Assembly: GCA_040772905.1 (NCBI GenBank)
Contig: JAXGXJ010000005.1
Coordinates: 70,149-134,148 of the forward strand
From: Thermoleophilia bacterium
GTDB taxonomy: Bacteria > Actinomycetota > Thermoleophilia > RBG-16-64-13
Direction of reading: 5' to 3'
DNA length: 64,000 nt
A program made the position numbers and the translations under genes. Shown here piece after piece: positions 27,539 to 59,412 of this stretch; position 1 is the stretch's first letter; the number at the start of each line of letters is the position of its first letter. The notes below the pieces were generated by a model that saw only the letters and a list, made by a program, of their open reading frames with translations, did no database searches and had not been told where the DNA came from.

Positions 27539-27560
27539 TCGTGGGCAGCCCGTGGGCAAG
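27539..27560 (+). repeat. tandem CGTGGGCAG / CGTGGGCAAG motifs, candidate integrase arm-type sites (left end of island)
   Basis: TCGTGGGCAGCCCGTGGGCAAG lies ~130 bp inside the island from the core. The same motif family recurs at 50549-50573 and 59382-59412, all on the plus strand. Confidence 0.45.
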
Positions 27561-27590
27561 CTGCGGGCGCGAAGCCGGCTCATTTGTAGT

Positions 27591-28289
27591 CTAGTCGCCT
27601 GTTAGGAATCGGACCAGGAGGGAGATCCCAAGAAGAACGAAGAAGATGACCGCAAGGAAGAAGAACCCAAGGACGTAATCACCGATGAACACCAACGGGA
27701 ACCACCACGGAATCGACTTGTGCTTGCGAAGCCAGTCGTGCTGTGCCCATTCATACCGAGATTTGCCATTCGCCCAGTAGTAACCACCTCGATAGCCCCG
27801 TCTCAACTCTGGCTTGGGCTTGGGCAGGCTGTCCCTATATGCCTTGTCCCCCTTCCTGTCTGCGGCATTGCCCAAGTTCAGGCACGCGAACACCAGTACT
27901 GGGAAGCCCACGAGGAGAGAGGGGACAAGAGCATCCCTTGAAGAGGGAAAGAGCAGCGTACCCACCCACGGGCCGACGAGGACGGTGAGGAAGAAGACTC
28001 CCGATAGTGACAACCAAATCTTCTGCCCGAGGGTCCGACTAGGAACGCATCTTTCCAAGTCAGTGACTGGCTCCGCTAATTGACGGATCTCATCCGCGCC
28101 CGCGGGAGCTCTTGCCGCTATGCCTTCCGTTCGCGATGCCGATTCTTCCCGATAGCTGCGAGTGCCCCGACATGCGGCCGAAGAGTAGCCGGTACAGCCC
28201 CAGAACTGGCCGCCTGCATTCGACCCTCGGCGAGCGGTCCTGAGGACCATTGGTCTTCCGCACCGTGGACAGGCTGGAGCTTCAGGCAA
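27591..28289 (-). CDS. membrane protein with N-terminal topoisomerase-type C4 zinc ribbon
   Basis: CPRCGRPMVLRTARRGSNAGGQFWGCTGY matches the zf-C4_Topoisom pattern. The C-terminal half has 3-4 hydrophobic helices. Confidence 0.55.
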   Translation of the reverse strand: MPEAPACPRCGRPMVLRTARRGSNAGGQFWGCTGYSSAACRGTRSYREESASRTEGIAARAPAGADEIRQLAEPVTDLERCVPSRTLGQKIWLSLSGVFFLTVLVGPWVGTLLFPSSRDALVPSLLVGFPVLVFACLNLGNAADRKGDKAYRDSLPKPKPELRRGYRGGYYWANGKSRYEWAQHDWLRKHKSIPWWFPLVFIGDYVLGFFFLAVIFFVLLGISLLVRFLTGD

Positions 28290-28522
28290 GACGAACTCTT
28301 CTCCCCGGGTTGCTCACGAGTTCGACCAGCGCCTTTGAAGAACACGGGGCCAGGCAGAATACGACGAGTCGTGACCGGTGCCTCTGCTCCTTGTCGAACG
28401 CCTGGCTGCAAGACTCGAGCGGCAGATGCTCTCGTTCATGGTACGCACCACATCCCACGGTAAGCCGCTGGGAAACTCCATTTCGATCTCCAGCGTTCTT
28501 GGCTCGCCACCATAGCGCGCTC

Positions 28523-29539
28523 CTAACCCGCGGCCGGCCAGTAGAGCCGGATCAGTGGCACGAGTGCTCGTGTGTCCGTATCCAGCTGCTCGTAGTTCTC
28601 GACTAGTAGGCTGACCACCTCGTCCACATCCAGAAGCGTAACCGGCACAGTAGCTCGATCGGCCTCGTACTTGGCCTCCTTGCTGAACCCGCCGATGCTG
28701 ACATACAGGCCCCGGTCGCCCGAACGAAGCCCACCGAGGAAGGAACGAAGACCTGGGGCGCCTATCTGCTCCTTGGGCCGGTGTTTGACTTCAACAACAA
28801 TGCGAGGCGATTCCAGGCCCAAGCCGTCGGGAGAGGCCACGATATCTCGGCCCTGATCGCTGCCTCGAGGCGAGACACGCGTCTTGTAGCCCATCGCGCG
28901 CAATATGCCGGCAACAAGCTCCTGCATCTGCTCCCAGTCCAGAGCCACCACTTTGTCCTTGATGAACTCGTGCGCTTTTAGTGCGGTCTCTTCACGAAGG
29001 AGTTCAAGTTCATCCTTGGGGGTCTCTTCTCCATTTGCCGGCTTCTCCTCCCCCTCACCACTCAATCGACGCTCAAGTTCAGAGGCGATCTCCGCTGGCA
29101 CAAGGAAGATCGTGCTGATGGCTCCCAGGCTGTTCTTGGCCCCGGTCGAGAGCTCGTCTCGGGGCACGGAACCGAGCCACTCAACCTCGCGGACATGAGG
29201 GTAGGGGTCTTGTCCGATCTTCACGGTCTCTGGCCGGTACTGATACGAGCCGACTATCGAGCCAATCGAGTACTCGCGCTTCTCGGGATCATATGTGACC
29301 ACTCGGTCTCCAGGAGCAAACTCGAGCAGGAACCGAGAGAGTTGGCCTGCAGAAGCAGCCACCTGGCCGGGCCGAAACTCGGGGAACTCTGCACGAACAA
29401 GGTCGCGAAGCTCTTTCGAGGTCTTCACGGTCGAAAGATCTGTGTAGTCGAGGAACCCCACGGCTACCAATGAATGCTGCCTGAAGTCGTCAACAAGCGC
29501 TCCGTCGCGCCCGGCGCGAACCATCCAAGTCTTGCTCAA
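28523..29539 (-). CDS. mrr: Mrr-like type IV restriction endonuclease
   Basis: 338 aa with an Mrr N-terminal winged-helix domain and C-terminal Mrr_cat pattern (DWEQMQELVAGILRAMGY...GSDQGRDIVA...VVEVKH). Confidence 0.75.
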   Translation of the reverse strand: MSKTWMVRAGRDGALVDDFRQHSLVAVGFLDYTDLSTVKTSKELRDLVRAEFPEFRPGQVAASAGQLSRFLLEFAPGDRVVTYDPEKREYSIGSIVGSYQYRPETVKIGQDPYPHVREVEWLGSVPRDELSTGAKNSLGAISTIFLVPAEIASELERRLSGEGEEKPANGEETPKDELELLREETALKAHEFIKDKVVALDWEQMQELVAGILRAMGYKTRVSPRGSDQGRDIVASPDGLGLESPRIVVEVKHRPKEQIGAPGLRSFLGGLRSGDRGLYVSIGGFSKEAKYEADRATVPVTLLDVDEVVSLLVENYEQLDTDTRALVPLIRLYWPAAG

Positions 29540-29578
29540 CTCATCTCACCTCCGGATGGGCAACTCGTTCGCTGACTC

Positions 29579-34208: not shown

Positions 34209-35100
34209 TCGTCAGATTCCTTCGCCGCCAGTCCCGGGATGGGCGCCAGAGCAGGTCCCAGCTTGAGGTAGTTCACCTTGACCCCATCATCCAGGTCCAG
34301 CTCGATACGCTCCTGGGCCAGCGGCAGGAGCACCTCCCTTTCATACTCCTCGCACTCGCGGATGGTCTTGCCGAGCGCGTCGGCTTCTTTGCGATACCGA
34401 GCCTTGTCATGAGGCGAGGTGGACTCGCTGGCCAGGAGGTGCTCCAGGTGCTCCAGGCGATAGTGCATCTTGGAGATGTACTCGCGCAGGTAGCGGTTGA
34501 GCACGCGGTTGGCCGTGTCGCGGGTGTAGCGGTGGAGGTAGACGAGGCACTGGAAGCCCTTCTTGGGACTCTGGAACATCCAGTAGATGGGCCGCTTCTT
34601 GTGAGTCTGGAGATGGTCCTTGTAGAAGTCGGTGGCAAAGTACTTGCGCAGGTCCTTGCCCAATGACTCCTCGATGAAGCGCAGGTTCTCATCCAGGGTC
34701 GAATCCCCAAACGTGACCCGCAGGAAGTTCCGCGTGCGAGCCACGATGTCATCCTCGAACCATTCTCCGCTTAAGACCGGGATGATGGCATCTTCATCGG
34801 GGACAAAGCTGAGCTCATCCAGGGGCCTCCCCACTCTTGCCAGGTAGCCCTCCAGAGTGTCGCCGGCATCGGCCAGGATGAGGCCGGGCTTATCCAGGGA
34901 GTAGCGGCCCATCATGCAACCCACGGCGTGGGAGAGGAATCCAGCGATGTCCTTACGTCTGTCGGGACGAGCCAGGGTGATCTCCTCTTCCGGGACCTCA
35001 GGAGTGAGCTCATCCTGAAGGCCATAGGCTTCGATCCACAGGCGGTTGTTCTCCGTCTCTAGCTGCTGCATACGGGCAATGTTGTCCCTGTCGTTGCCGA
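34205..35100 (-). pseudogene. pglX: BREX methyltransferase PglX, C-terminal fragment (gene split by IS21 insertion)
   Basis: Contains the PglX C-terminal signature KRPIYWMFQSPKKGFQCLVYLHRYTRDT. Overlaps the pglZ start by 4 bp. Upstream coding continuity is broken at the IS21 left IR (35101). Confidence 0.75.
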
Positions 35101-35199
35101 TGTGAAACTGACCCATTAGTGCCGGTCTGAAACTGACCCACCTTGAAATGACGTAGGCTTCTCGGTTGGTTCTCTTGGAATCTGCCGAGGAGGGGTCAG

Positions 35200-48407: not shown

Positions 48408-48926
48408 GTGTCGAGCGAGGATGCCGCACGAGAAGACAAGGCAAGGTCAAAGCCTCGGCGCTCATCGAAGACATTCCGGGGGAACAAGCGCACGCCGGTT
48501 GAGGGAAAGCGCTTTCCCTCCGAGATCTTCGGGGACAATGTTCGGCTTTTGAGACACAGGCGCGAATTGCGCCAGCAGGATCTGGCTGAGTGGATGAATA
48601 ACCTCGGGTTCTCCGGCTGGTCCTACGTTACGGTGTCCGATGTTGAGCGGGGCATGCGGAGCACCAGCATCGATGAACTATTCGCGCTGGCGTTCGCGCT
48701 CAAGGCGCCGGTGGTCAAGCTGCTCGACCCCTGCTTCACCGGCAATCGGGGCCAAGACATCGACCTCGGCTTTGAGCATTTCGAACAATGGGCGCCCAGG
48801 GATCCGCGGGCGTTCATCGTGCCGAGCGGTGATCCATGGGCACTGGAGCAGGGTGATGTGACCTACGACCGGTATCGGAGCCAGTTCGAGCGACTCGTGG
48901 AAGACGCCGAGCAAGGTCTCCTGTGA
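48408..48926 (+). CDS. XRE-family (Cro/CI-type HTH) transcriptional regulator
   Basis: HTH FGDNVRLLRHRRELRQQDLAEWMNNLGFSGWSYVTVSDVERG. GTG at 48408 is preceded by GGAGG. Alternative upstream ATG at 48345. Confidence 0.6.
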   Translation: MSSEDAAREDKARSKPRRSSKTFRGNKRTPVEGKRFPSEIFGDNVRLLRHRRELRQQDLAEWMNNLGFSGWSYVTVSDVERGMRSTSIDELFALAFALKAPVVKLLDPCFTGNRGQDIDLGFEHFEQWAPRDPRAFIVPSGDPWALEQGDVTYDRYRSQFERLVEDAEQGLL

Positions 48927-50095
48927 GGGGCTCCCTTCGCAAACGGGGCGGTGGCTGGGAATGGCGGGCGCGCACACCCGACGGCCGCCATGTGAGCAAG
49001 GCAGGCTTCGAGACCCGAAAGGCGGCCCAAGAGGCGCTCACCAAAGCGCTGGCCGCCATGGCTGACCAGCGGTTCGTCCGTCCCGATCGGCTGACGGTCG
49101 AGGACTATCTCACCGACACCTGGCTCCCGGCCGCCAAGCCGACCGTGGCCTACACCAGCTATATCAACTATGCGAGCGTCATCGCCAACCACATCGTCCC
49201 GAATATAGGGGACATCCCTTTGCAGAAGCTCACGCCGGGCCACGTGAAGGCCATGTACGCCGAACTGTCTCAATCGGGGCACCGGGCCAGCACGAAGAAG
49301 AAGCCCAAAGGGCTCTCGCCCAAGAGCATCCGCAACGTGCACACCACACTGCATCGAGCCCTCAGCGACGCCGTCGAGTGGGGATACGTGGCCGGCAACG
49401 TGGCCAGCCGCGTGAAACCACCCAAGCTGAACGCCGAGCTTCACATGAAGGCGTGGACCGCCGCCCAGCTGCAGACCTTCCTCGCCCACACGAGCAAGGA
49501 CCGCTGGTATCCGCTGTGGCGCCTCCTTGCCCTGACCGGCATGCGCCGGGGTGAGGCCATGGGACTGCGCTGGTCGGATGTCGATCTCGAGGCCGCTCGC
49601 ATCTCCATAGTCCAAGCACGCAGCATCTGGGGGATCTCCTCCCCCAAGACGCCCCGCAGCCGCCGGTCTCTCGACCTGGATCCGGAGACGGTGGCCGTGC
49701 TTAGACGGTGGCGGCGCCAGCAGCTCGAGGAACGCATGCTCTGGGGAGAACTCTGGACTGACACCGGCCTGGTCTTCACACGCGAGGACGGCCGGGCCGG
49801 GCACAGCGACACCGTGACCGGCGTCTTCGTCCGTGAGCAGGCCCGGGTCAACAAGCAGCTGGCCGAGGAGGCCCTTAAGGCTGACACGGAACCAGTCCTC
49901 CTTCCCCAGATCCGGCTGCATGACCTCCGACACACCCACGCCACGCTGCTGCTCGCCAACGGCGTGAATGCCAAGGTCATCTCAGAACGGCTTGGCCATG
50001 CATCCGTCGCCTTCACGCTCACGACCTATGCCCATGTCCTTCCCGGACAGCAGATGGAGGCGGTCACACGCTTGGCCGCTGTCATCGACGGGTAG
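48923..50095 (+). CDS. int: tyrosine site-specific recombinase (phage-type integrase)
   Basis: 390 aa. C-terminal catalytic signature LHDLRHTHATLLLANGVNAKVISERLGHASVAFTLTTYAHV with the conserved R...HxxR...Y residues. N-terminal arm-binding-like domain. Confidence 0.9.
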   Translation: MRGSLRKRGGGWEWRARTPDGRHVSKAGFETRKAAQEALTKALAAMADQRFVRPDRLTVEDYLTDTWLPAAKPTVAYTSYINYASVIANHIVPNIGDIPLQKLTPGHVKAMYAELSQSGHRASTKKKPKGLSPKSIRNVHTTLHRALSDAVEWGYVAGNVASRVKPPKLNAELHMKAWTAAQLQTFLAHTSKDRWYPLWRLLALTGMRRGEAMGLRWSDVDLEAARISIVQARSIWGISSPKTPRSRRSLDLDPETVAVLRRWRRQQLEERMLWGELWTDTGLVFTREDGRAGHSDTVTGVFVREQARVNKQLAEEALKADTEPVLLPQIRLHDLRHTHATLLLANGVNAKVISERLGHASVAFTLTTYAHVLPGQQMEAVTRLAAVIDG

Positions 50096-50120: not shown

Positions 50121-50486
50121 ATGTGCGAGGAGCCTACCCAGATGACCTACGCCGAAGCCTGCGCGCTTCTGGGCTACGCCACGCCACCGCTCCTCTCGAG
50201 GGAGGATCGTCGGGAGCTCGTAGAGCGCGTCGTTGGAGCGAGCGAGCAGGGGACGAGATCTATTCCGCCCGAGACGGCCAAAGAACTCCGCGACGAGTAC
50301 GAGCCCTCACACATGACCTACGAGGATGCCTGCGCGCTTCTCGGCTTCGACCATCCGCCCGACTTGGACGCCTGGTCCCGGGATCTCGTCCTTCGCTTCG
50401 TCAAGGTGAAGAGCGAGAACGGCAGGTGCTCCATCGATCCACGCCTGGCAACCTTGTATCGCGCCGAGATCGAGGAGTTCGGTTAG
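50121..50486 (+). CDS. hypothetical protein with internal ~55-aa tandem duplication
   Basis: MTYAEACALLGYATPPLL... repeated as MTYEDACALLGFDHPPDL... within 121 aa. Immediately downstream of int on the same strand. Confidence 0.4.
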   Translation: MCEEPTQMTYAEACALLGYATPPLLSREDRRELVERVVGASEQGTRSIPPETAKELRDEYEPSHMTYEDACALLGFDHPPDLDAWSRDLVLRFVKVKSENGRCSIDPRLATLYRAEIEEFG

Positions 50487-50548: not shown

Positions 50549-50573
50549 CCCGTGGGCAGCCGTGTGGGCAGAC
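50549..50573 (+). repeat. CGTGGGCAG / CGTGTGGGCAG tandem motif (internal copy of the island-end motif)
   Basis: CCCGTGGGCAGCCGTGTGGGCAGAC; the same family as at 27539-27560 and 59382-59412. Confidence 0.45.
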
Positions 50574-50811
50574 GACATGCAGCTCGCTACTATCCTCGGA
50601 TATAGCGCTGCGTGCGGAGCGGGTTCGAAGCATCTGACATGGCCGCCGATGGCCACCGCACCTTCGGGCCCCAAACCCGAAGGCACACCCGGCGACTCAC
50701 CGCTTCTTGGCTCTCGCACGCTTCACCTTGAGGCTGTCAATCCGACAGGCTAGGTCAAACTCGAGCCCCAGCGGTGTGGAGATCTGACCCGTGCCAGGGG
50801 GTTCCAGCCTG

Positions 50812-51618
50812 TCACGTGGCCACTGGCGGAGCTGCCACAAACACGGACTGGAATACCTTCTGCACCCCTCGCACCAACTCCTCAGCATCGGACTCGTCAG
50901 GCTCCTGGGCTCGCGCATGGCTGAACTTGTTGCGGAGGCTTGTTAGGCGGAAAAGAAGCGCCGCGTCATCTTCCGACAGGGCCTCAGCATCCCGAAGAGC
51001 CACCACAAGATCGCCCAATGCCGGCTTGCGCTTGTCCAAGATCACACCGTTGTCGGTGCAAGCCGCACTGAGCTTGTGCTCGAGCACCACGCCGGCAACA
51101 GCGCCGGCAGCCCGCACAAAACCCTTGGCCAGCAACTCACGTGACTCTTCAAGCTCATCCGCAAACAGATCGGCGCGGAGTAGTCCTTTGATATTCGCGA
51201 CTGCGCTCCTGAGTACTTCGCCAATGGAGTCGAAGATCTGATATTGCAGATTGAAGAGTATGAACATGCGTCGGTTGAAGTCATCCCAGGTCATGCTCTC
51301 CGGCTTGCGACCCAGAATCCAGTCTTGAATGGTCATCGTCTGGTCGTCTATGAAGATCCGGGAACCCGGCGCGTAATACAGACTTTCGAACTCCAGGGAC
51401 CGGTGGGGGATAACCTGCTGCACGAGGAGAGAGGCACGAGTGAACCAATCACTATAGTGCGATTCCAGTTCAAACTCTTCCTCGATACCGACCACTCGGT
51501 CATTGTTGCCCTCGGGGTCAAGGAAAGCGGCTTCGCTTGCGTCACAGTGAAGCTCGACGGCCTTTCGACGCAGCTGCTCGTATTCTGCCAGGATGCTGTC
51601 CGCCGTCTGATGCTTCAT
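50812..51618 (-). CDS. HEPN-motif protein (Rx4H), Abi-like
   Basis: 268 aa. The C-terminal segment LFRLTSLRNKFSHARAQ carries an R-x4-H motif in a helical context typical of HEPN RNases. Confidence 0.45.
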   Translation of the reverse strand: MKHQTADSILAEYEQLRRKAVELHCDASEAAFLDPEGNNDRVVGIEEEFELESHYSDWFTRASLLVQQVIPHRSLEFESLYYAPGSRIFIDDQTMTIQDWILGRKPESMTWDDFNRRMFILFNLQYQIFDSIGEVLRSAVANIKGLLRADLFADELEESRELLAKGFVRAAGAVAGVVLEHKLSAACTDNGVILDKRKPALGDLVVALRDAEALSEDDAALLFRLTSLRNKFSHARAQEPDESDAEELVRGVQKVFQSVFVAAPPVAT

Positions 51619-52089
51619 CGAATCTTGCCCTCCCTCCCAAGTTCACTGCGGAAGCCCCACATTTATATCGATAGTCACCGATGACAACTTGAGCGTGGGA
51701 TGCACATGATCACTGGTTGGATGAGTGATAGGAGGCTCATCCTGGGCATGGCCGAGTTGAGGGACACGCATCCTGAGTAGGTTCGATATCTGACCAATAG
51801 ATTCGTCTGAGAGCTGGCCGGCTGGAACGGTCAGCCTGCGGCTAACCGGGAATCAGCCGAAAGAGACTTGCATTCTCGGCTGAAGCCCGAGGACATGTGG
51901 CGTTTCGTGGACGAGAGTTGTCCCTCCCGAGCTGCTGAGGGTCATGCCGCTTTTTCACTGTGAGTGTTTCATGCACATGGACTCACGTCGCGTGCCCACT
52001 CGGGCGTCATCAGCGGGCTCTGGATATGTCAGGCCTCTTTCATCCGTGGTCGACTTCTCGGCGTGCTACGCGGCTCTGCACGCGGGGAT

Positions 52090-52974
52090 TCACCGTCCCT
52101 CCTGCGTGAACTCGACCAACCGATACATCGGCTGACCGTGGACCATGATGACCGCGCCCTCTTGAGCTTGGAGACCGCCAGCCTTCATCAGCCCCTTGGC
52201 GATGGGAGACTCCCAAGTGATGATGCCCGCCGCCGGGTCTGGCCCCCGTCGGACGATCTGGCGTGTCACCTTCTGTCCCGACTCGATCTCAATCAGTCCC
52301 ACCGTAAGGCCGATCAGCTCTTCACCTGGCCGCGGCCGAAGATCCCCAACGTCCGGTTCATAAGGACACTCTGAGCGCAGCACATCGATTCCAACGGTTC
52401 TCTTGATGACCGTACGCACCGTGCGACAGAAGTCACAGCGCCGGTCATATCCGCGACCGGAGACGGTCATCATGACCCCATCGAAATCGACACGGGCGCG
52501 CGGTCGTTTCACTCTGGCCCAGTGTTCGAGGATCGCCCGCATCTGCGACTGGACCTCCCCTGAAGTCCCCTCGAACCAGGTGTCACACTCGATCAATTCG
52601 CCGTCGTCGTACTGTCTCTCGGGAATGCCATCGAAGACTAAGTCGCTGTTGACAGTGCGTAGTCGCCCCCTGTCGTCTGCCGATACGGCGACCGGGACAG
52701 GAGCTGGCGCGGGTGGCGACGCGTCGTGACGACGAGCGGACTCGGTCGGTCGGCGTACGGGTCGTGCCGGCGCACTGGCCGCATGCCGTGAGACGCGGGG
52801 GGTCTGCGTTCCGCCCGACCCGGCCGAAGCCGAGATCAGGTTACGCATGAGACGTGTGATGTCCTCCTCGAGTCGCTCCGACGGCACATTCTCCAATGCA
52901 GCGGCCAGCATGCTGTCGTTGAGCAAAACATTGATGTAGACGAGCCCCGTCTCCTTGTCGACTATGACGGGCAA
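52090..52974 (-). CDS. protein with C-terminal GreA/GreB-C-terminal-like (FKBP-fold) domain
   Basis: The last ~70 aa (VGLIEIESGQKVTRQIVRRGPDPAAGIITWESPIAKGLMKAGGLQAQEGAVIMVHGQPMYRLVEF) follow the GreA_C pattern ISxxSPlgxALlGkxxGDxV. The N-terminal 220 aa are uncharacterised. Confidence 0.45.
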   Translation of the reverse strand: MPVIVDKETGLVYINVLLNDSMLAAALENVPSERLEEDITRLMRNLISASAGSGGTQTPRVSRHAASAPARPVRRPTESARRHDASPPAPAPVPVAVSADDRGRLRTVNSDLVFDGIPERQYDDGELIECDTWFEGTSGEVQSQMRAILEHWARVKRPRARVDFDGVMMTVSGRGYDRRCDFCRTVRTVIKRTVGIDVLRSECPYEPDVGDLRPRPGEELIGLTVGLIEIESGQKVTRQIVRRGPDPAAGIITWESPIAKGLMKAGGLQAQEGAVIMVHGQPMYRLVEFTQEGR

Positions 52975-53086
52975 TTTGGACCTCCTGCTCGTGATGGTGC
53001 GTCAGTCCACATGCGTCGGCGCCCGAGCATTTACCACAAGTCTGCCCGTGCTAGTAGTTGCCGCGTGCGCCACTAACCGCCGGGGG

Positions 53087-53725
53087 CTAGAGCTGTGGAT
53101 CCTCCTCGTCGGAATAGGTCTCATCATAGATTTCTTTGAGGATGCGGCCCTCGTAGGTCCAGTAAGGAGAAGGCTGGACCTGGTAGTCGGTTCCCATGAG
53201 CTCAGTCGTGACTCGGGTCAGTGAGCTGACTTCGCCATCGCGCTGAACCCGACGTTCGTCCACCACAACAACACGTACGTCTGGGTCATTGCGGTAGGTG
53301 AGGACCGAGCCTGCAGGAATCCCCATCTCCGTGAAGTTCATGCGCGGACGCTTGTTGCGTTTCATCGTTTCTCGAGACTCGCGCTCGTCATTGTCGAGGC
53401 CTTCCGACAGCTGCTGCTCGACCTGAGGTGTGACGTCACTGACCGAAGGAAGGCGCAGGATCGCGATGACCCGTTCGGGTTCGATGCGAAAGAACTCACG
53501 CTTTGGGTTCACGCGGTGGTCCCCGAAGGCGGTATGGAACGCTGCCTCGACCTTGCCGCAGTCATCGACTTCGCAGGCATACACACACTCGAAAGGAACC
53601 GGAACGCCAGTGGTGTAGAGCTGAGCGAGGCGGGCGGAGAGCTCCACCTGTGACGTCTTGCCGATCTTGGTCAAGCCGGGCATGGCGGGGTTGGTCAGCA
53701 CGTATACGATCTCACGAAGACTCAC
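53087..53725 (-). CDS. T5orf172 (GIY-YIG-like) domain protein
   Basis: N-terminus IVYVLTNPAMPGLTKIGKT...RLAQLYTTGVPVPFECVYACEVDD...REFF matches the T5orf172/MUG113 pattern. C-terminal half unknown. Confidence 0.55.
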   Translation of the reverse strand: MSLREIVYVLTNPAMPGLTKIGKTSQVELSARLAQLYTTGVPVPFECVYACEVDDCGKVEAAFHTAFGDHRVNPKREFFRIEPERVIAILRLPSVSDVTPQVEQQLSEGLDNDERESRETMKRNKRPRMNFTEMGIPAGSVLTYRNDPDVRVVVVDERRVQRDGEVSSLTRVTTELMGTDYQVQPSPYWTYEGRILKEIYDETYSDEEDPQL

Positions 53726-53818
53726 AGCACATGGCCTCCACAGTCGCTATCACCTCTGGCGCGGCAGGCGCGCTCGCTGTCCATGGTAGCTGACAAGGTC
53801 CGCACACCAAGGGCGCCA

Positions 53819-54646
53819 CTAGCTGGGGCCAAGCAGCCCAGGGGCCACCTTAGCGACCCAGTGCGCGTGCAGCCTGCTCCATAGAGCCGAGTGACTTCCC
53901 AGCCGCCCGGCCTGCCGCGGATGTACCAGCGGCAGCAACTTCAGGGCGTGGCCGGCAATCTCCATGTCACGGGGCCGACCGTAAGTCTCCGGCGTCTCGC
54001 CGTACAAGCCGAGTGCTGGCTGAGACCCGTAATACTGGGCAAACCACTTGAGGGGCTGGTCTCCGAGTGTGACCAGTACATCCGGCGAAGCGGACAGAAT
54101 CTCGCCCTCAATCTCAAGTCGCCTCGCCGCCGAAGCCAGGATGGAGGGGACCGAGGGAAAGTCGTAGGCAGGAAGGCCGAGTGCCTCCCGCCGTGGGTCG
54201 TATTCCCGCTCGATGGCCGCCCGCTGACGGGGGTTGCAGCGACTCTCCGGGAGAAGGTCGCAAAGCCAAGCATCGCTGCGGGTGACGCCGAGCGGTTCAA
54301 GGAACAGCGAATCCAGGGTCACCCCAGACGGGCCGTTCAGCGTCTTACTCGCGGGTATCAAGCGTCCCGCTCCGGGCGGCATTGGTATCTGCTTGATGAG
54401 CGCGTCGCCATCGTCACCGCGCCAGAAGATCTCGGGCTCAGAGGCAACCGCGAGAGCGTTGATGATCGTCTTGCCGTCCTCAGAAACCCAACGAGCATGC
54501 ACAGCACTTGCATACACGCCGAGGACGAAGATGCGCTTGGGATTAATGTCGGCCTGTCGGACCGGCACAATCGGCATGCCGAATGGGTAGGTGTACACGT
54601 GTGACCTCTCCGTCCGTCGAGTATCTAGGCGTTTCTCGACAGCCAT
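53819..54646 (-). CDS. hypothetical protein
   Basis: 275 aa from the internal ATG of track ORF 53819..54700. No confident domain; distant resemblance to the HPxxxxR motif of uracil-DNA-glycosylase-superfamily proteins (LPLVHPRQAGR). Confidence 0.35.
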   Translation of the reverse strand: MAVEKRLDTRRTERSHVYTYPFGMPIVPVRQADINPKRIFVLGVYASAVHARWVSEDGKTIINALAVASEPEIFWRGDDGDALIKQIPMPPGAGRLIPASKTLNGPSGVTLDSLFLEPLGVTRSDAWLCDLLPESRCNPRQRAAIEREYDPRREALGLPAYDFPSVPSILASAARRLEIEGEILSASPDVLVTLGDQPLKWFAQYYGSQPALGLYGETPETYGRPRDMEIAGHALKLLPLVHPRQAGRLGSHSALWSRLHAHWVAKVAPGLLGPS

Positions 54647-54984
54647 GCTTGAGGATCCTCGGGCCCCAGAATGGTCACGCCGAAGTGCTCTCTGAGCCAC
54701 GCGCTGGTCATGGGGTAGATGAGCATCAGTCGTACCGGACTGTGTGACAAGGAGCGAGCCAAGATGAACGCCCCGTTACGTTCTATCGTCTCCAGCTCAT
54801 ATACCTTGTCGCGGACACCCTCGGGGTAGTTGGCCTGGTAGAAGGCCAGTGAGAACTTGCGTCCACCTTTCGGTGCGATCTCTTCGACCCGTGCCGGCGA
54901 ATAGGACCGCATCTCCGTCCCGAATTCTTCCCCAAGCAGTTCCATTGCGTACCAGTGTCCGGGTTCTAGCGATAGTCTGTCCAT
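54625..54984 (-). CDS. hypothetical protein
   Basis: 119-aa ORF in the same orientation as its neighbours, overlapping the next gene start. No recognisable motif. Confidence 0.3.
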   Translation of the reverse strand: MDRLSLEPGHWYAMELLGEEFGTEMRSYSPARVEEIAPKGGRKFSLAFYQANYPEGVRDKVYELETIERNGAFILARSLSHSPVRLMLIYPMTSAWLREHFGVTILGPEDPQAWLSRNA

Positions 54985-55033
54985 GGTTCCGCCTGCCGTC
55001 GATGCGTGTCAGCAGACCCCGAGCGCTTGCATC

Positions 55034-55678
55034 TCAGTCTGCATCTCGGTCTTCCTCGCGGCGTTCCGCAGGACGCGCTTGTTGGTTCGCTTCATCCCGT
55101 CTTCCAACGTGGAGATCAACGTCCACGACGTGTTCTTCAGAAAACCGGAATGCCTTTGGGACGAGAGATTGATCCCGTTCGAGCACGGCTTCAACCAGGG
55201 TCGCGAGGTCGTTCCGACGCTCCTTCGGAAGTGCAGCGAGCCGTTTATCCTCGTCCATCTGATGACGAATCCGCTTGCGAGTCTCCCGGGCATGCAGGCC
55301 TTGTTCCAAGTTGTCGTAAGCCTTCGTTAGCGACTCAACTGCAGGCGGAAGGTACTTTAGACACAACCAGACGATCGAGATCAGCGGCACGTTTTGGAGG
55401 ATTTCAGGGATGACAAGCTCGACCGACCCGGGGCGGACCCGTTCAACGCGAAGATACTCAGTCGGTCGCATTGCGTAGGATCGGAAGCCGCTGGGTTGCA
55501 GCCGCCCGTAGATGTGGTCAATGAGCTGAAGGTACGCAGCCATGTCGCGAAGCGGAAGATCGCAGCAGTCGGTGCGAACTATCAGTTCAAGGCGGTCACC
55601 TTCCCGTGCCCCCGGGACAAGCAACGACTGGAGTTCCCTCAGAGCGATGACTGGCATTCGCACCACAAGGTCGCGCAT
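55034..55678 (-). CDS. hypothetical protein
   Basis: ~214 aa from the internal ATG of track ORF 55034..55729. No recognisable motif. Confidence 0.35.
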   Translation of the reverse strand: MRDLVVRMPVIALRELQSLLVPGAREGDRLELIVRTDCCDLPLRDMAAYLQLIDHIYGRLQPSGFRSYAMRPTEYLRVERVRPGSVELVIPEILQNVPLISIVWLCLKYLPPAVESLTKAYDNLEQGLHARETRKRIRHQMDEDKRLAALPKERRNDLATLVEAVLERDQSLVPKAFRFSEEHVVDVDLHVGRRDEANQQARPAERREEDRDAD

Positions 55679-55754
55679 GAATCTCCCCTTCGTCGAGCTA
55701 ACGTGTGAGCGCAACAGTGGCGCGCCCACCCCCTGCAGTTCACTCTAGCGCTTA

Positions 55755-56465
55755 TCAGACCCGCTGTTGCGGTACCAGTTCATACAGCAGATACTCCGGA
55801 GACAGGGAATCCCAGCGAGTCACGGATATCAGCAGAAGCCTCATGCACTCCGGCGAACTTCCGGACTTCAGCCGGAAGTTCGTCTGCTGGAGCATCACGT
55901 CAAGCCTATCCGGAAACTCGGCCTTCATCCGGCGAACGTGCTCGAAGCTGTTGGTCGGGTCGCTGCCGTCTTCCGCCTGGAGAGAGCCGGTTGGCACCCC
56001 CGCCAACTCCACCAGGAGCGGGGCCGGAGACACATCAAGGAGCTGGAACAACCTACGGTGTCGTCTGTACAGACTGTCCGTGACAGCTGGGACGCCCTTG
56101 TCGACTAGTACCTGAAGAAGATCCAATGTGTAGGTGAGCAATTCTGAACCGTAGCGCTTGTTCACGGCATATCGCACTGCGGTCCCGGGAGACGGCGACA
56201 CGTACGTTTGCCCATGCTGGAAGTTCCGTGAGCCAGCCCGCTGCTGAATCATTAACTCAAAAGAGTGGCGCCTACGCTTGTATATGGCATGGTCCGCCGC
56301 GTGCTCATCGAGCAAGGGCTGAATATCTCGGGCGAGATCCAACACTCCCAGCTCCTCGAGAGGATCCTTCGCTCCCAGACCGAGCCGGCGGATATCCTCA
56401 AGGAACAAGGTCGAAGTGCCGTGATACAGCGGCAAGTCGAACACTTCGCCAGCGGTCTGGGCCAT
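55755..56465 (-). CDS. hypothetical protein with ADP-ribosyltransferase/Tpt1-like H-G-T ... Y-x10-Y motif pair
   Basis: From the internal ATG (MAQTAGEVFDLPLYHGTSTLF...GQTYVSPSPGTAVRYAV). The LYHGT and Y-x10-Y motifs match the first two signature motifs of H-Y-E-class ART/Tpt1 folds. A catalytic Glu was not identified. Confidence 0.35.
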   Translation of the reverse strand: MAQTAGEVFDLPLYHGTSTLFLEDIRRLGLGAKDPLEELGVLDLARDIQPLLDEHAADHAIYKRRRHSFELMIQQRAGSRNFQHGQTYVSPSPGTAVRYAVNKRYGSELLTYTLDLLQVLVDKGVPAVTDSLYRRHRRLFQLLDVSPAPLLVELAGVPTGSLQAEDGSDPTNSFEHVRRMKAEFPDRLDVMLQQTNFRLKSGSSPECMRLLLISVTRWDSLSPEYLLYELVPQQRV

Positions 56466-56544
56466 CGAGATAGATCCCCCTTCGCCGGTGTGCCTTGCGT
56501 GTTTCGGCTTCAATGTGGGCGCAGCGCGCCAAGTGGAAGCCGGG

Positions 56545-57129
56545 TTAGGCACCTACTTGTTTGATCCAGTCCCGTATGTTCACACCGAGGCGCTCGATGT
56601 CGGGCTTCGACAAGGTGCCGCTGTGCATGATCACGTTTCGCGATCTCTCCACGACGTCAAACAGGCTTTGAACCCACTCGATGGACGGAATGTAGGGTTC
56701 AAAGAGCGTGTCGTTCTTGCGAATGATGCTCACTAGATCGCCGAATTCCGTGTAGTTCAGCGGGTCGTCGCCACGCGGAGTATGCCAACGGTTCTTCTGC
56801 TCATCGTCCCGGCGACCCTCTGCGCGCTTGCGCACATGCTCACTGGTGCCTTGCGTCCACCAGTTTTCACCGAACTCCGCAATGAGCGCATCCTTCACCA
56901 AGTCCCGGGCGGAGTTCTCGAAAGCCGCCACGGCCGTGTATACGGCCGCCATCTGTTTCGCCTCTGCCACCAAGTCGTCGTCAAGAAGCTCGATGGACAA
57001 CGTCGCCGCGATATCGGCGTCGAAGAATCCCTGAACGCACGGTCTGGGACGGCCGGCGCGATCAAGGGACTCTTCAGACAGAAGCCCCTTGAAGACGAAC
57101 TCGTAGATGTCGCCCAATCGGCCGCTCAC
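56545..57129 (-). CDS. Swt1-like HEPN-domain protein
   Basis: 194 aa with C-terminal ...EWVQSLFDVVERSRNVIMHSGTLS (R-x4-H). Its start overlaps the stop of the upstream gene (ATGA). Confidence 0.5.
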   Translation of the reverse strand: MSGRLGDIYEFVFKGLLSEESLDRAGRPRPCVQGFFDADIAATLSIELLDDDLVAEAKQMAAVYTAVAAFENSARDLVKDALIAEFGENWWTQGTSEHVRKRAEGRRDDEQKNRWHTPRGDDPLNYTEFGDLVSIIRKNDTLFEPYIPSIEWVQSLFDVVERSRNVIMHSGTLSKPDIERLGVNIRDWIKQVGA

Positions 57130-57746
57130 CTAAGATGGGTTCGCAGGCTTGCGAATATCGCATCGTAAACTGCTGGGTCACGAGACTCAGGCAGGACAAT
57201 CTGGATATTGTAGACCAGGCCATCAAGCACCAGTTCTGGTGGTGCTGTTGGCTCAATCGTTACGCTTCCCGATCCGGTCCTGACCTCCGGGACTGGCGTC
57301 TGATGAGTCTTCGGGGCCGAGGATTTGAAGTCAGCGTGTTTTGCCAGAGCCAGGAAAGTCATCGCCATCTTGTCCACAACCGAATCCGATAGCTTGCCTT
57401 CGCCCAGAGTCTTGAGCTTATTCATCACATCCTGTTTGGTCATGGTATGCGCGCTCTTGTTCACTCTGAACAAGTCTGCATAGGCTTCACGCACTCCGTC
57501 CGCCAGTACTCGGGCGGACTGAGACTGATCGAGGTACTCGAAGTAGCGTTTCGTGGGCCGACCAGCGTCATCCAGGAAGCCCAGGGACTTGAGTACGTTG
57601 ATGATGAGTCGGTCGTTGCTGCTGGTGAACCCGAGATCCTCAAGGTACTTCTGCGTGAACTTGTCTGGAGCCTGTGCGTTGCGCATGGCTGCCAGGATGC
57701 CGTCGAGGTTCTTCTGGGTGGTCAAGTACGCTGTTGGCAGTGCCAT
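57126..57746 (-). CDS. DUF5343-like protein
   Basis: Starts MALPTAYLTTQKNLDGILAAMRNAQAPDKFTQKYLEDLGF..., which I recall as the DUF5343 N-terminal pattern. First gene of an overlapping four-gene operon. Confidence 0.45.
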   Translation of the reverse strand: MALPTAYLTTQKNLDGILAAMRNAQAPDKFTQKYLEDLGFTSSNDRLIINVLKSLGFLDDAGRPTKRYFEYLDQSQSARVLADGVREAYADLFRVNKSAHTMTKQDVMNKLKTLGEGKLSDSVVDKMAMTFLALAKHADFKSSAPKTHQTPVPEVRTGSGSVTIEPTAPPELVLDGLVYNIQIVLPESRDPAVYDAIFASLRTHLR

Positions 57747-58031
57747 TCGATCCCCCCTATCGACACGAACGCTCGTGGTCAAGGGACCCTCCATTGAGCC
57801 CCCCAGAAGTGTATCTCACCCATCTGATATCACTGGCTAGTACACAGTGTGTGGCAAGCACCCCAGAATGGAGCACAGTCGTTGGGCTCTGGCCGGACAG
57901 TGGAACGACAGGCGATGGAGACGGTTCTCCTCCGTGAACTTGCGGCCGAGCTGTATCGCGCAAACAAGAGGGACTCGTCCGTCCAACGTTGGGCACATAA
58001 CCCTCGCCTCATCACTGTAGCGTCTGCCAGC

Positions 58032-59072
58032 TCACGTCGCGCCCATTGTCTGAAGCTTCTGTAGGAAGTGCGAGAAGTCGCGCAACGTTTCCAAGTCCTC
58101 ATCTGGTATGCCGTCTGGATCGAAGTGCATGACGTCATTCCGAATCTCCCGGACCCTGTCCAACTGCGTGATGACAATTTTGCGATCGATTGCGAGGCCG
58201 AGTTTGGCCCACCTTTCAGAGTTCTGGAGCAAGCGGATGTACTCACCGAATGTCAGATCCGCGACGCTCTCGACGATACGGTCTGGATCGTCTGGGTCGC
58301 GTGCTGCTTGAAGCTCCGCTGTTCCGAACCGCTCACCGATAAGCCGCCTGACATGGTTCTCGATCTCTCCGAGAAGCAGGAAGGGTTCGGTCAGTTGACG
58401 GAACTGTAGACTCAGATCGCTAGACGTCACAATCCCACTAATTACCCGATCGGCGCCTCGCACAAGTACATGGTCGTGCTCGGCGATGACGTTGATGACA
58501 TCGAACAGTGAGGCAGTCGCGTACACTTCGACGTGCGAGTCCATGAAGTCCCGCACGGGCCCAATCGGCTTCGCCAGCGCCAGCCGCGTTCCTATTCCTG
58601 AGAGAGTGATCATGCCCTTCACATCACGCTCATTGGTCATGACTGGCAACTGCGAGAAGTCATTCGTCAGCATCTTGGTCAGAGCCGTCTCTAGCAAATC
58701 GTCAGGCTTCACAGATTCCGGCGTATGATTAGCGGCCTGCAGCTTGGAGACGCGGTATGTCGGATCTTGGTAGGTGTCATGTAACGAGGGGCCTTCCTCC
58801 GGAGCTCCCTCCTCCTGCGGCGGCTCCGGTTCGCTTGCATGGCTGGCGAGCTTGAATACAATGGGTGAATCGATGTATGCGGATTCGAAGTCAGGCTCGG
58901 TGACCAACCCATATGTGGTCAGGCCCTTGCGCAACGCATAGACGATCCAGTAGCCTCTACGCTTGGCATCAATCCACGAGAGGAACTCACGGATCGTGGG
59001 CGCCGGAGATGGCTCTCCCTTGCGCAGGTCGATAGCAATCTGCTCAAGACGCTCATGGAAATCCTCGTGCAT
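58032..59072 (-). CDS. CBS-pair plus C-terminal Swt1-like HEPN domain protein
   Basis: 346 aa. Two CBS-like repeats (LTKMLTNDFSQLPVMTNERDVKGMITLSGI; VRDFMDSHVEVYATASLFDVINVIAEHDHVLVRGADRVISGIVTSSDL). C-terminal LDRVREIRNDVMHFDPDG carries R-x4-H. Confidence 0.55.
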   Translation of the reverse strand: MHEDFHERLEQIAIDLRKGEPSPAPTIREFLSWIDAKRRGYWIVYALRKGLTTYGLVTEPDFESAYIDSPIVFKLASHASEPEPPQEEGAPEEGPSLHDTYQDPTYRVSKLQAANHTPESVKPDDLLETALTKMLTNDFSQLPVMTNERDVKGMITLSGIGTRLALAKPIGPVRDFMDSHVEVYATASLFDVINVIAEHDHVLVRGADRVISGIVTSSDLSLQFRQLTEPFLLLGEIENHVRRLIGERFGTAELQAARDPDDPDRIVESVADLTFGEYIRLLQNSERWAKLGLAIDRKIVITQLDRVREIRNDVMHFDPDGIPDEDLETLRDFSHFLQKLQTMGAT

Positions 59073-59381
59073 GACACCCCCTCGTGTCCGTCTAACGTCT
59101 CAGCGCTTCGGCCTAGCGCTTTGTCCATGGTATCGGACAATGCGGCCAGTCAGCTGCACGGGCTAGTTAGACGGCGCCCGAGAAGGTTACGGGCTCGACC
59201 CAGAGCAGATAAGCCTCCCACACTCCCCAGCAGAGCCAACGCAATCTTCGGCGACGGTCGATTCACGGCGCGATTGCATACCCCTCTCGCAGGCCGTCAG
59301 GGTCCGTGGGCTAGTCCGGTCCAAGGGTTAGGTGACAATGGACGCAGACGCGGATGGGCGGACGCGCACAGCGCGCATCGG

Positions 59382-59412
59382 CACGTGGGCACGTGGGCAG
59401 CGTGTGGGCAAG
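59382..59412 (+). repeat. three tandem ACGTGGGCAG-like motifs, candidate integrase arm-type sites (right end of island)
   Basis: CACGTGGGC ACGTGGGCAG CGTGTGGGCAAG, 68-98 bp from the tRNA-derived core. Confidence 0.45.

What the first reader, a model, noticed from the sequence alone, without database searches (positions are those of the whole stretch)
27539..59412. CGTGGGCAG-type tandem motif at both island ends and once internally near int
The motif occurs at 27539-27560 (~130 bp inside the left core), 59382-59412 (68-98 bp inside the right core) and 50549-50573 (450 bp downstream of int), always on the plus strand and as 2-3 tandem copies. This fits integrase arm-type binding sites. The internal copy, together with int lying ~9.4 kb from the tRNA, raises the possibility that the island is a composite of two modules (27.4-50.6 kb and 50.6-59.5 kb) with the internal core lost.
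Basis: seen in the sequence. Interest (0 to 1): 0.5.

Follow-up and report, generated by a model that had tools for sequence, protein, structure and literature searches.

The report
Integrase arm sites plus internal pseudo-att
The repeated CGTGGGCA motif is most likely the accessory ("arm") docking site of the island's integrase at both island ends, an ordinary feature; the third, internal copy belongs to a conserved, non-recombining relic of an attachment site next to the integrase gene, which is mildly unusual.

Summary
Tandem GTGGGCA copies occur only at 27541/27552(/27563), 50552/50564 and 59385/59393/59404, all on the + strand, against about 0.02 such clusters expected per window.

The arm-type reading is strongly supported, though binding was not measured.
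- Relatives of this tyrosine integrase carry 2-4 tandem copies of a lineage-specific 7-9-mer (10-12 nt period). These lie about 100 nt before the anticodon-loop crossover and again about 110-130 nt after it.
- The motif tracks residues 9, 10, 14 and 17 of the integrase N-terminal domain. It does not track the target tRNA, the replication protein or the XRE regulator.
- Three motif predictions made from the N-domain alone were all correct.

The composite reading is partly supported.
- The internal site is a diverged paralog of the int-proximal att half: an arm pair, a terminator-like hairpin, and exactly 98 nt later the palindrome CCTTCGGG-N7-CCCGAAGG, which mimics the tRNA-fMet anticodon arm.
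- It lies where simpler relatives have their real attachment site.
- It is not a recent junction. All six close relatives with enough sequence have it, with identical spacing, different 7-nt loops and unrelated cargo beyond it.
- No P' arm and no second integrase remnant follow it.

Its function is unknown. It is probably a retained integrase-binding or terminator site that cannot recombine.

The parts
27324..27410 (-). Displaced chromosomal copy of the tRNA-fMet terminator (27324-27365) and tRNA 3' half through the anticodon loop (27366-27410). This is the attL core; the identity block ends at TTATGAG|.
   Evidence: D2: 56 nt, 95% identical to 59469-59524. In every array or left end seen in relatives, the identity block ends at the same TTATGAG|.
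27540..27569 (+). P' arm: CGTGGGCAG (27540-48), CGTGGGCAA (27551-59) and a degenerate third copy CTGCGGGCG (27561-69). The period is 11 nt and the first copy starts at +130 from the core.
   Evidence: The homologous arm with three GTGGGCAA copies is present in L148, with int 79% identical. L152 has a P' pair at +131. Other lineages carry their own motif at +109 to +133.
45193..48018 (-). RepAM-type replication protein (DUF3631), part of the conserved backbone.
   Evidence: Pfam PF12307, E = 7.5e-46. The same gene is present in L001 and L002. PF12307 is used as the profile for RepAM, the pMEA300 replication initiator, in PMC3218068.
48345..48926 (+). XRE-type HTH regulator whose gene overlaps the int start.
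   Evidence: Pfam HTH_31. Its recognition region is the same in elements with three different arm motifs, so it is not the arm binder.
48923..50095 (+). Tyrosine integrase with an N-terminal beta-beta-beta-alpha domain (residues 3-47), a SAM-like core-binding domain and a catalytic domain.
   Evidence: Pfam hits. AlphaFold2 model with mean pLDDT 81. Foldseek best matches are Tn1549 Int and full-length lambda Int. Weak hit to Arm-DNA-bind_4, E = 0.004.
50121..50486 (+). Small ORF after int. It is an internally duplicated version of the 57-58-aa ORF of relatives. Its function is unknown; it may be a small DNA-binding protein.
   Evidence: (D7). Only a weak HTH_28 hit, E about 0.1.
50551..50571 (+). 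Internal arm-type pair: CGTGGGCAG ccg TGTGGGCAG, with a 12-nt period.
   Evidence: The pair is invariant in L001, L002/3, L084, L085 and L092.
50608..50622 (+). Small conserved hairpin (CTGCn-N5-nGCGG) at the position that the tRNA terminator hairpin occupies in a true attR.
   Evidence: There is no covariation, and the innermost pair is broken in the window copy.
50661..50683 (.). Core-like palindrome CCTTCGGG-CCCCAAA-CCCGAAGG. It mimics the tRNA-fMet anticodon arm (CCTTCGGG-TTATGAG-CCCGA). It lies exactly 98 nt after the second arm copy and is the last conserved element before the variable cargo.
50684..59383 (.). Variable right-hand cargo, including the candidate defence genes PDC-S57 and PDC-M34A/B, HEPN, UDG-like and CBS proteins. 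GC is lower, mostly 0.56-0.59 (up to 0.62 in 52-55 kb). The region is unrelated in every relative.
59384..59411 (+). P arm: CGTGGGCAC (59384-92), CGTGGGCAG (59392-400) and TGTGGGCAA (59403-11).
   Evidence: L001 has a pair at the same place. In fetched loci outside the window's own subfamily, 22 of 27 tRNA-fMet-type cores have an exact tandem of 7 nt or more in this zone, against 4% of random windows.
59436..59524 (-). Element-borne terminator (stem 59456-59472) and tRNA-fMet 3' half (59480-59524). This is the attR core and it restores the tRNA gene. The overlap is the anticodon loop, 59518-59524.
59480..59556 (-). Intact tRNA-Met(CAT). It is judged initiator-type from three G-C pairs in the anticodon stem and a mismatched 1:72 pair; this is my reading of the sequence, not a tool result.
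   Evidence: ARAGORN, Rfam at 65.4 bits, and sequence inspection.

Best explanation
The island (27411-59524) is an integrated element with an AICE-like backbone (RepAM, XRE regulator, tyrosine integrase) and defence cargo on both sides. It is inserted in the anticodon loop of the initiator tRNA-Met gene.

The CGTGGGCA repeats at the two ends are most likely the arm-type sites of its attachment site. In the excised circle they would lie about 95-125 nt before and 130 nt after the crossover. They would be bound by the small N-terminal domain of Int, while the core-binding and catalytic domains hold the anticodon-arm core. That bridging would assemble the intasome, as in lambda, L5 and pSAM2-type systems. 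The site layout and co-variation are shown here; binding and bridging are inferred.

The internal pair belongs to a third, incomplete att-like site. It is an ancient duplicate of the int-proximal half (arm pair, terminator-like hairpin, anticodon-arm-like palindrome), lying where the ancestral element ended. Its 7-nt spacer no longer matches the tRNA overlap, so Int can probably bind it but cannot recombine it with attL or attR. This locks the right-hand cargo into the element.

Purifying selection appears to keep the arm pair, the palindrome and their spacing. The most likely reasons are a role as an Int-binding site and/or a bidirectional terminator in the convergent gap between the int operon and the cargo genes. 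The conservation is shown; the role is inferred.
For: Shown by tool results:

1. Clusters occur only at the three sites.

2. Geometry is conserved across the family.
- The P arm carries 2-4 tandem copies, with the last one at about -96 to -111 from CTTCGGG.
- The P' arm carries a pair at +109 to +133.
- In L019, L049 and L075, in L152 and in the window, the P and P' arms of one element share the same motif.
- 22 of 27 cores have an exact tandem of 7 nt or more, against 4.1% of random windows.

3. The motif is lineage-specific and follows the Int N-domain.
- R9-G10..E14..A17 goes with GTGGGCA in 7 integrases whose arm DNA was read (P0003 has the same signature, but its DNA could not be read).
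- W9-R10..Q14..V17 goes with GTGGAAC in 4 integrases.
- H9-G10..Q14 goes with GTGTCCA in 1 integrase.
- Three blind predictions were correct.
- GTGGGCA-type integrases target tRNA-fMet, tRNA-Pro, and two other tRNAs not identified by ARAGORN (one read by eye as Arg(ACG)-like). GTGGAAC-type integrases target tRNA-Pro and tRNA-fMet.
- P0010 and P0011 group with other clades over residues 56-390 but with the window in the N-domain.

4. The Int model has beta-beta-beta-alpha at residues 3-47 followed by a flexible linker. It aligns over 384-387 columns with full-length lambda Int.

5. Other candidate binders are excluded.
- The XRE protein does not co-vary with the motif.
- RepAM is absent from L152.
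- No gene is called between int and the arm pair in L152, L154, L004 or L150, so the small ORF found in the window is absent there.

6. Internal site.
- It is present in 6 of 6 close relatives with enough sequence.
- The alignment is gapless, with exactly 98 nt of spacing, the same as the true attR of L001.
- Spacer identity to the true attR is 0.37-0.47, against 0.26 +/- 0.045 for shuffles.
- Invariant columns number 30 of 32 in the arm copies and palindrome arms, against 17 of 119 elsewhere (p = 2.5e-17).
- Similarity ends right after the palindrome.
- The site lies in a convergent intergenic gap in the window, L001 and L002.
Against: - No binding data exist.
- The Pfam Arm-DNA-bind_4 hit for this Int is below the curated cutoff (17.1 against 22.3 bits). 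Only 3 of 17 subfamily members hit at E <= 0.01.
- The co-variation rests on 12 integrases whose arm DNA was read, in three motif classes. These are partly related by descent.
- For the internal site there are only six sequences, three of which (L001, L084, L085) are close to one another. Some of the conservation may therefore be shared ancestry.
- The palindrome stems show no compensatory change, so an RNA-hairpin role is neither supported nor excluded. No consensus terminator (U tract) is predicted there.
- Distant relatives that also carry cargo between int and the tRNA have no internal site. The internal site is therefore not needed in general.
- The left arm was seen in only three GTGGGCA-type elements.
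Confidence: 0.8

Rival explanations
1. This is a recent composite island. Two elements integrated in tandem at tRNA-fMet (27.4-50.7 kb and 50.7-59.5 kb), and the internal junction is a neutral, decaying attI.
For: - Genuine tandem arrays with intact internal cores exist in the family: L067, L075 (4 cores), L049 and L082.
- The internal site is att-derived.
- It lies at the ancestral int-proximal position.
- The right module has lower GC.
Against: - The same internal site, with shared derived features (12-nt period, 8-bp palindrome, non-tRNA spacer), is present in all six close relatives. Their int identity is 74-86%, and each has unrelated cargo.
- The arm pair and palindrome are invariant while the spacer is 32-49% identical between the divergent lineages, and there is no indel.
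- No P' arm follows the site.
- There are no int, rep or HTH fragments in 50.7-59.4 kb.
Confidence: 0.12
2. The internal site is an active recombination site. Int uses it to capture or exchange the right-hand cargo module, for example by recombining internal sites that share a 7-nt spacer between elements lying in tandem.
For: - Homology between close relatives breaks within 0-3 nt of the palindrome's right edge. In L001, L084 and L085 the left spacer is 79-87% identical and the right flank is unrelated.
- The site has the full P-arm-to-core geometry (98 nt).
- Tandem arrays, which would bring such sites together, are common.
Against: - The 7-nt spacers differ between lineages (CCCCAAA, CTAAAAA, CCAAAAA, CTAACAA, CTAACAG), as expected if the spacer is unconstrained.
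- No partner site with the same spacer exists in the window.
- There is no P' arm.
- A sharp boundary is also expected if the palindrome is simply the last selected element before dispensable cargo.
Confidence: 0.08
3. The repeats are bound by a different protein: iterons for the RepAM replication protein, operators for the XRE regulator, or sites for a recombination directionality factor (the small ORF).
For: - Direct repeats with a helical period are also typical of iterons and of RDF sites.
- The XRE gene is translationally coupled to int in most relatives.
Against: - L152 has GTGGGCA arms but an AAA_25 protein instead of RepAM.
- No gene is called between int and the arm pair in L152, L154, L004 or L150, so the small ORF is absent there.
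- The XRE recognition region is nearly identical in elements with GTGGGCA, GTGGAAC and GTGTCCA arms.
- The motif lies on both sides of the core at fixed distances and tracks the Int N-domain.
Confidence: 0.05

Closest known systems
[quoted passage not shown]
   Same: - Short direct repeats, distinct from the core, lie in pairs on both sides of a tRNA-derived core.
- The integrase has an extra N-terminal domain.
- The crossover is in the tRNA anticodon loop, and the element supplies the 3' half of the tRNA.
   Different: - The motif (CGTGGGCA) and the target (initiator tRNA-Met) are specific to this clade.
- Binding has not been demonstrated.
- A third, internal pair is attached to a non-recombining core mimic.
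Actinomycete integrative and conjugative elements of the pMEA300/RepAM type (review PMC2440964; survey PMC3218068)
   Same: - The backbone combines a tyrosine integrase, an XRE-family regulator and RepAM (DUF3631).
[quoted passage not shown] That is where the internal site lies here, and where the real att lies in the 57-62% relatives.
   Different: - No FtsK/SpoIIIE-type Tra gene was found among the ORFs scanned.
- Large defence cargo (BREX, Mrr, PDC systems) lies on both sides.
- The functional att is 9.4 kb from int.
- The hosts of the relatives are Thermoleophilia and other Actinomycetota MAGs rather than Actinomycetales.
Composite islands formed by tandem accretion (ICE/CIME in streptococci; PAISt of Streptomyces turgidiscabies, whose abstract reports that it is able to excise in modules, PMC4057263, abstract only)
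   Same: - There is an att-derived site inside the island, at a module boundary.
- Real tandem arrays occur at the same tRNA in this integrase family.
   Different: - In those systems the internal site keeps the identity segment, and the modules excise separately.
- Here the overlap has diverged, so the internal site cannot recombine with the ends.
- The site is nevertheless conserved.
Integrase autoregulation through att-region binding (KplE1 IntS, P4 Int; PMC2951348)
   Same: Int-binding sites next to the int gene have a regulatory rather than a recombinational role. This is a possible function for the internal site.
   Different: - In KplE1 the sites overlap the int promoter upstream of the gene.
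- Here they lie downstream of a convergent int operon. That paper predicts this configuration ('OC') to be non-autoregulated.

Membership tests
Arm-type sites of a heterobivalent tyrosine integrase | The element encodes a tyrosine recombinase with a catalytic domain and a core-binding domain. | tested here: met
   PF00589 at E = 4.6e-20 and PF14659 at E = 2.4e-12. The PDB profile search finds Tn1549 Int at E = 1.7e-20.
Arm-type sites of a heterobivalent tyrosine integrase | The integrase has a separate N-terminal arm-binding domain. | tested here: met
   This is a prediction only. The model has three strands plus a helix at residues 3-47, then a low-confidence linker. Foldseek aligns 384-387 columns with full-length lambda Int. 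The Pfam Arm-DNA-bind_4 hit is only E = 0.004, below the cutoff.
Arm-type sites of a heterobivalent tyrosine integrase | Repeated motifs different from the core lie on both sides of the crossover, inside the element. | tested here: met
   The layout is the same in L001/L148 and L152 and in other lineages.
Arm-type sites of a heterobivalent tyrosine integrase | The motif co-evolves with the integrase arm-binding domain, independently of core specificity. | tested here: met
   12 integrases with arm DNA read, three motif classes, and 3 of 3 predictions correct.
Arm-type sites of a heterobivalent tyrosine integrase | The Int N-domain binds the repeats directly, and the repeats are required for recombination. 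| not testable with these tools
   This needs EMSA or footprinting and attP mutagenesis.
Composite island by tandem accretion with a usable internal att site | An internal copy of the att identity segment (tRNA 3' half with overlap TTATGAG) is present. | tested here: not met
   Only CCTTCGGG-CCCCAAA-CCCGAAGG remains. The tRNA 3' half has degenerated to 37-47% identity.
Composite island by tandem accretion with a usable internal att site | The second module carries its own P' arm and/or remnants of int or rep. | tested here: not met
   No tandem repeats occur at +90 to +150 after the palindrome in any of six elements. tblastn with int, HTH and RepAM finds nothing in 50.7-59.4 kb.
Composite island by tandem accretion with a usable internal att site | Close relatives exist that consist of one module only. 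| tested here: inconclusive
   Simple int-arm-tRNA elements exist only at 57-62% int identity. All relatives at 74% identity or more that have enough downstream sequence carry the internal site followed by other DNA.
AICE (actinomycete integrative and conjugative element) | An Int, replication protein and regulator module is present. | tested here: met
   The family definition is taken from PMC3218068 and PMC2440964.
AICE (actinomycete integrative and conjugative element) | An FtsK/SpoIIIE-type Tra protein for conjugative transfer is present. | tested here: not met
   No such domain was found among the 30 island ORFs scanned against Pfam. ORFs shorter than 90 aa were not scanned.

The most novel reading that the evidence does not exclude
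The internal site is a functional 'locked' attachment site. Int still binds its arm pair and its symmetric core mimic, but the diverged 7-nt spacer prevents strand exchange.

In this reading the site has been co-opted for one or both of two roles:
- fixing a hot spot for exchangeable defence cargo between itself and the true P arm;
- controlling the int operon, through termination or Int occupancy next to its own gene.

In the stronger version it remains recombination-competent with identical-spacer sites in tandem neighbours and acts as a cargo-swap site.
Probability: 0.3. Interest if true: 0.6.

Novelty: new variant of a known kind. Interest (0 to 1): 0.4.

Why it matters
The end repeats are ordinary integrase arm sites, so most of the finding is explained. 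Two points have some value.

1. The clade offers a natural specificity series for arm recognition.
- Three related motifs (GTGGGCA, GTGGAAC, GTGTCCA) pair with a four-residue signature in the first two strands of the N-domain.
- This pairing is independent of which tRNA is targeted.
- It could be tested directly and used to re-target or insulate integrase systems for high-GC Actinomycetota.

2. A conserved att-like site that cannot recombine is not a standard feature of integrative elements.
- It lies at the boundary of a rapidly exchanging defence-gene region.
- It may show how accreted cargo becomes locked into a mobile element.
- It may also show how cargo hot spots are delimited.

Tried and rejected
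- Structured RNA or tRNA-like gene at the internal site. Rfam at gathering threshold finds only the real tRNA, ARAGORN finds nothing, and RNAalifold shows no covariation.
- Intrinsic terminator or promoter at the internal site. The consensus scan of 48.0-51.5 kb predicts nothing there, although U-less hairpins are not covered by that scan.
- A second copy of the palindrome or of its spacer in the window, as a recombination partner. None was found.
- Orientation of the internal core from its loop. The loop matches the tRNA overlap about equally in both orientations (3-5 of 7), which is uninformative, so I dropped it.
- Reading the loops as anticodon loops of other tRNAs (Pro, Lys, Asn). The stems are always those of tRNA-fMet, so I rejected this.
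- An internal arm pair in distant relatives that also carry cargo between int and the tRNA. It is absent.
- IMG/VR scan for the internal pair. The 89 hits are roughly what I estimate chance would give. None has the palindrome; one unrelated prophage (L218) has GGTGGGCAGC x2 before a tRNA 3' half that I read as tRNA-Lys.
- Left end of the L001 element. The P' arm was found, but the core was not reached, because the contig ends in an IS21-like end.
- DNA for P0003 (int 83% identical) was not available.
- The look-up of the window's own integrase to name the genome failed. The host is therefore inferred only as Actinomycetota-like, from the relatives.

Full report
**1. Observation**

The three sites are as described.
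- Left: 27540 CGTGGGCAGccCGTGGGCAAgCTGCGGGCG. This has an 11-nt period and a degenerate third copy.
- Internal: 50551 CGTGGGCAGccgTGTGGGCAG, with a 12-nt period.
- Right: 59384 CGTGGGCACGTGGGCAGcgTGTGGGCAA.

All copies are on the + strand. The exact heptamer GTGGGCA occurs 17 times in the window, against about 10.6 expected. Same-strand pairs within 14 nt occur only at these three places. Simulated sequences gave 0.02 such clusters per window. In 1.8 Mb of loci fetched from other genomes, all 15 tandem pairs lie in elements that encode the same integrase type.

**2. Setting**

tRNA-Met(CAT) lies at 59480-59556 on the - strand. I read it as initiator-type from three G-C pairs in the anticodon stem.

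Its 3' half through the anticodon loop, together with a terminator, is repeated at 27324-27410. The island is therefore 27411-59524, and the crossover is at the anticodon loop (TTATGAG on the + strand).

Gene content:
- a Zn-ribbon ORF and Mrr;
- a type 1 BREX system whose pglX is split by an IS21-family insertion (35088-37068);
- RepAM/DUF3631 (45193-48018, -);
- an XRE-type HTH gene (48345-48926);
- a tyrosine integrase (48923-50095, +);
- a small ORF (50121-50486);
- about 8.5 kb of - strand cargo, including the candidate defence systems PDC-S57 and PDC-M34.

**3. The end repeats behave as arm-type sites**

*Close relatives.* An element with int 79% identical (L001/L148) has the same layout.
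- Its P arm reads GTGGGCAAaccGTGGGCAAg, 98 nt before CTTCGGG of tRNA-fMet.
- Its P' arm has three GTGGGCAA copies with flanks homologous to 27470-27540.

*Simpler relatives.* A 9.2-kb element (L152, int 62%) is inserted in tRNA-Pro.
- It has CGTGGGCAAaaCGTGGGCAG starting about 13 nt after the int stop.
- It has a second pair at +131 from the core.

*The wider family (int 37-47% identical).* Here the architecture is the same but the motif is lineage-specific: CCGTTAGA, GTGTTGTAC, GTTGACA, GTTTGACA, GGTAGAAG, CGGTAGCG, CGGCACCA or GTGTAGAAG.
- The period is 10-12 nt, mostly 11-12 nt.
- The last P-arm copy lies at about -96 to -111.
- The first P' copy lies at +109 to +133.
- The same motif occurs in both arms of one element.
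- 22 of 27 tRNA-fMet-type cores have an exact tandem of 7 nt or more at -170 to -80, against 4.1% of random windows.
- Every identity block ends exactly at TTATGAG|.

**4. Which protein binds the repeats**

*The integrase N-domain.*
- The Int model has three strands and a helix at residues 3-47, then a flexible linker.
- The whole chain aligns with full-length lambda Int and with Tn1549 Int.
- Pfam Arm-DNA-bind_4 is only a sub-threshold hit.

*Co-variation.* Among integrases 57-100% identical, the arm motif follows an N-domain signature and not the target tRNA.

| N-domain signature | Arm motif | Integrases | Targets |
|---|---|---|---|
| R9-G10..E14..A17 | GTGGGCA | 7 with arm DNA read (P0003 has the signature but no DNA) | tRNA-fMet, tRNA-Pro, two other tRNAs not identified by ARAGORN (one read by eye as Arg(ACG)-like) |
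| W9-R10..Q14..V17 | GTGGAAC | 4 | tRNA-Pro, tRNA-fMet |
| H9-G10..Q14 | GTGTCCA | 1 | tRNA-fMet |

I predicted the motif for P0006, P0011 and P0013 from the N-domain before reading their DNA. All three predictions were right.

P0010 and P0011 are closer to the other clades over residues 56-390, but closer to the window's Int in the N-domain.

*Other candidates.*
- The XRE protein has the same recognition region in elements of all three motif classes.
- RepAM is absent from L152.
- No gene is called between int and the arm pair in the simple elements L152, L154, L004 and L150, so the small ORF is absent there.

I therefore assign the repeats to Int. Binding remains inferred.

**5. The internal site**

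In all six close relatives with enough downstream sequence (the window, L001, L002/L003, L084, L085, L092; int 74-86% identical to the window's), the small ORF is followed by the pair GTGGGCAG-N4-GTGGGCA. Exactly 98 nt after the second copy lies CCTTCGGG-N7-CCCGAAGG.

The tRNA-fMet anticodon arm on the same strand reads CCTTCGGG-TTATGAG-CCCGA. The true attR of L001 has the same 98-nt spacing.

*Conservation.*
- The alignment from the pair to the palindrome has no gap, although the spacer is only 32-49% identical between the divergent lineages.
- The spacer is 37-47% identical to the true attR spacer (terminator plus tRNA 3' half), against 26 +/- 4.5% for shuffles.
- A small hairpin is kept where the terminator hairpin lies.
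- Invariant columns are concentrated in the arm copies and palindrome arms: 30 of 32, against 17 of 119 elsewhere (p = 2.5e-17).
- The 7-nt loops differ between lineages (CCCCAAA, CTAAAAA, CCAAAAA, CTAACAA, CTAACAG).
- Similarity stops right after the palindrome.
- No P'-type repeats follow it.
- No int, rep or HTH fragments lie in the right module.

*Comparison with relatives.*
- In relatives at 57-62% identity, int is followed directly by the arms, terminator and tRNA. This matches the AICE rule that attP lies directly downstream of int (PMC2440964).
- Distant relatives with cargo between int and the tRNA lack an internal site.
- Real arrays with intact internal cores exist (L067, L075, L049).

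**6. Interpretation**

The internal site is an old duplicate of the int-proximal att half. It most plausibly dates from an accretion or capture event in the ancestor of this subfamily.

Its overlap no longer matches TTATGAG, so it cannot recombine with attL or attR. The island therefore moves as one unit.

Three things point to selection: sequence-level conservation of the arm pair, sequence-level conservation of the palindrome arms, and their fixed spacing.

The site lies in the convergent gap between the int operon and the cargo genes in the window, L001 and L002. The simplest roles are therefore Int binding and/or termination. I could not distinguish between these.

It is wrong about its age, its state (the core is modified, not lost) and its present consequences.

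**7. Comparison and verdict**

The end repeats are a new member of a well-known kind: arm-type sites, as in lambda, L5 and actinophages (PMC10865867). The backbone is AICE-like (PMC3218068), but no Tra gene was found.

The conserved, non-recombining internal att mimic is a modest new variant. Modular islands such as PAISt (PMC4057263) are reported, in the abstract I read, to excise in modules, which implies usable internal sites.

Interest is moderate. The N-domain and motif series is directly testable, and the locked site bears on how cargo hot spots form.

Noticed in passing
window 35088-37068 (pglX parts at 34205-35116 and 37026-39689): An IS21-family element splits the BREX methyltransferase gene pglX, so the BREX system is probably inactive. 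The element has an rve/HTH transposase at 35200-36192 and IstB at 36183-36974, with 55-nt imperfect inverted repeats.
   Followed up: partly
window 26221-27242: An IS481-like transposase gene (-) abuts the displaced tRNA fragment. Three 28-nt direct repeats (27160-27242) lie between them.
   Followed up: no
window 44476-45190: There is a roughly 280-bp tandem duplication (44597-44764 and 44867-45048, 71-86% identical) in the gap between brxA and repAM. The ORFs called there look non-coding. It could be an origin or regulatory region for RepAM.
   Followed up: no
window 50121-50486: The small ORF after int is an internal tandem duplication (50130-50178 and 50301-50349, 82% identical) of the 57-58-aa ORF found once in L001 and L002. 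Each copy begins M-T-Y-x-(E/D)-A-C-A-L-L-G. It may be a small DNA-binding protein or RDF.
   Followed up: partly
window 27340-27357 and 59456-59472: The element carries its own version of the tRNA-fMet terminator. It has the same flanks (cttcccaaaagtaaag...) but a different stem sequence: CCCTGCA/TGCAGGG in the chromosome against CCCCG/CGGGG in the element.
   Followed up: no
window 50812-59072: The right-hand cargo includes the PADLOC candidate systems PDC-S57 (53087-53725) and PDC-M34A/B (57126-57794 and 56545-57129). It also has HEPN, UDG-like, GreA/B-C-like and CBS-domain proteins. GC is mostly 0.56-0.59 (up to 0.62 in 52-55 kb), against about 0.62 elsewhere.
   Followed up: partly
L148 about 21440-21560 (- strand): Five tandem units of about 23 nt (GCTGATCGGCATGGCGTGGAAT) lie between an IS21-like end and the P' arm, where the window has the att core. 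They contain the sister clade's arm-like motif CGTGGAA. This is unexplained.
   Followed up: no
L067 (cores at 11072 and 15389), L075 (2342, 7157, 11170, 15735), L049 (three cores), L082 (6560, 11152): These are genuine tandem arrays of small elements at tRNA-fMet. Each unit has its own arm motif, which shows that accretion is common for this integrase family.
   Followed up: partly
L152 1-30 and 9220-9249: This 9249-bp contig begins and ends with the same 30 nt of the tRNA-Pro 3' half. It may represent the excised circular form, or collapsed attL and attR, of a minimal GTGGGCA-type element.
   Followed up: no
L218 2735-2960: An unrelated IMG/VR prophage has GGTGGGCAGC x2 (12-nt period) just before a tRNA 3' half that I read as tRNA-Lys. 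More copies, one of them inverted, lie about 130-190 nt further on. A similar arm motif appears to have arisen in another integrase system.
   Followed up: no
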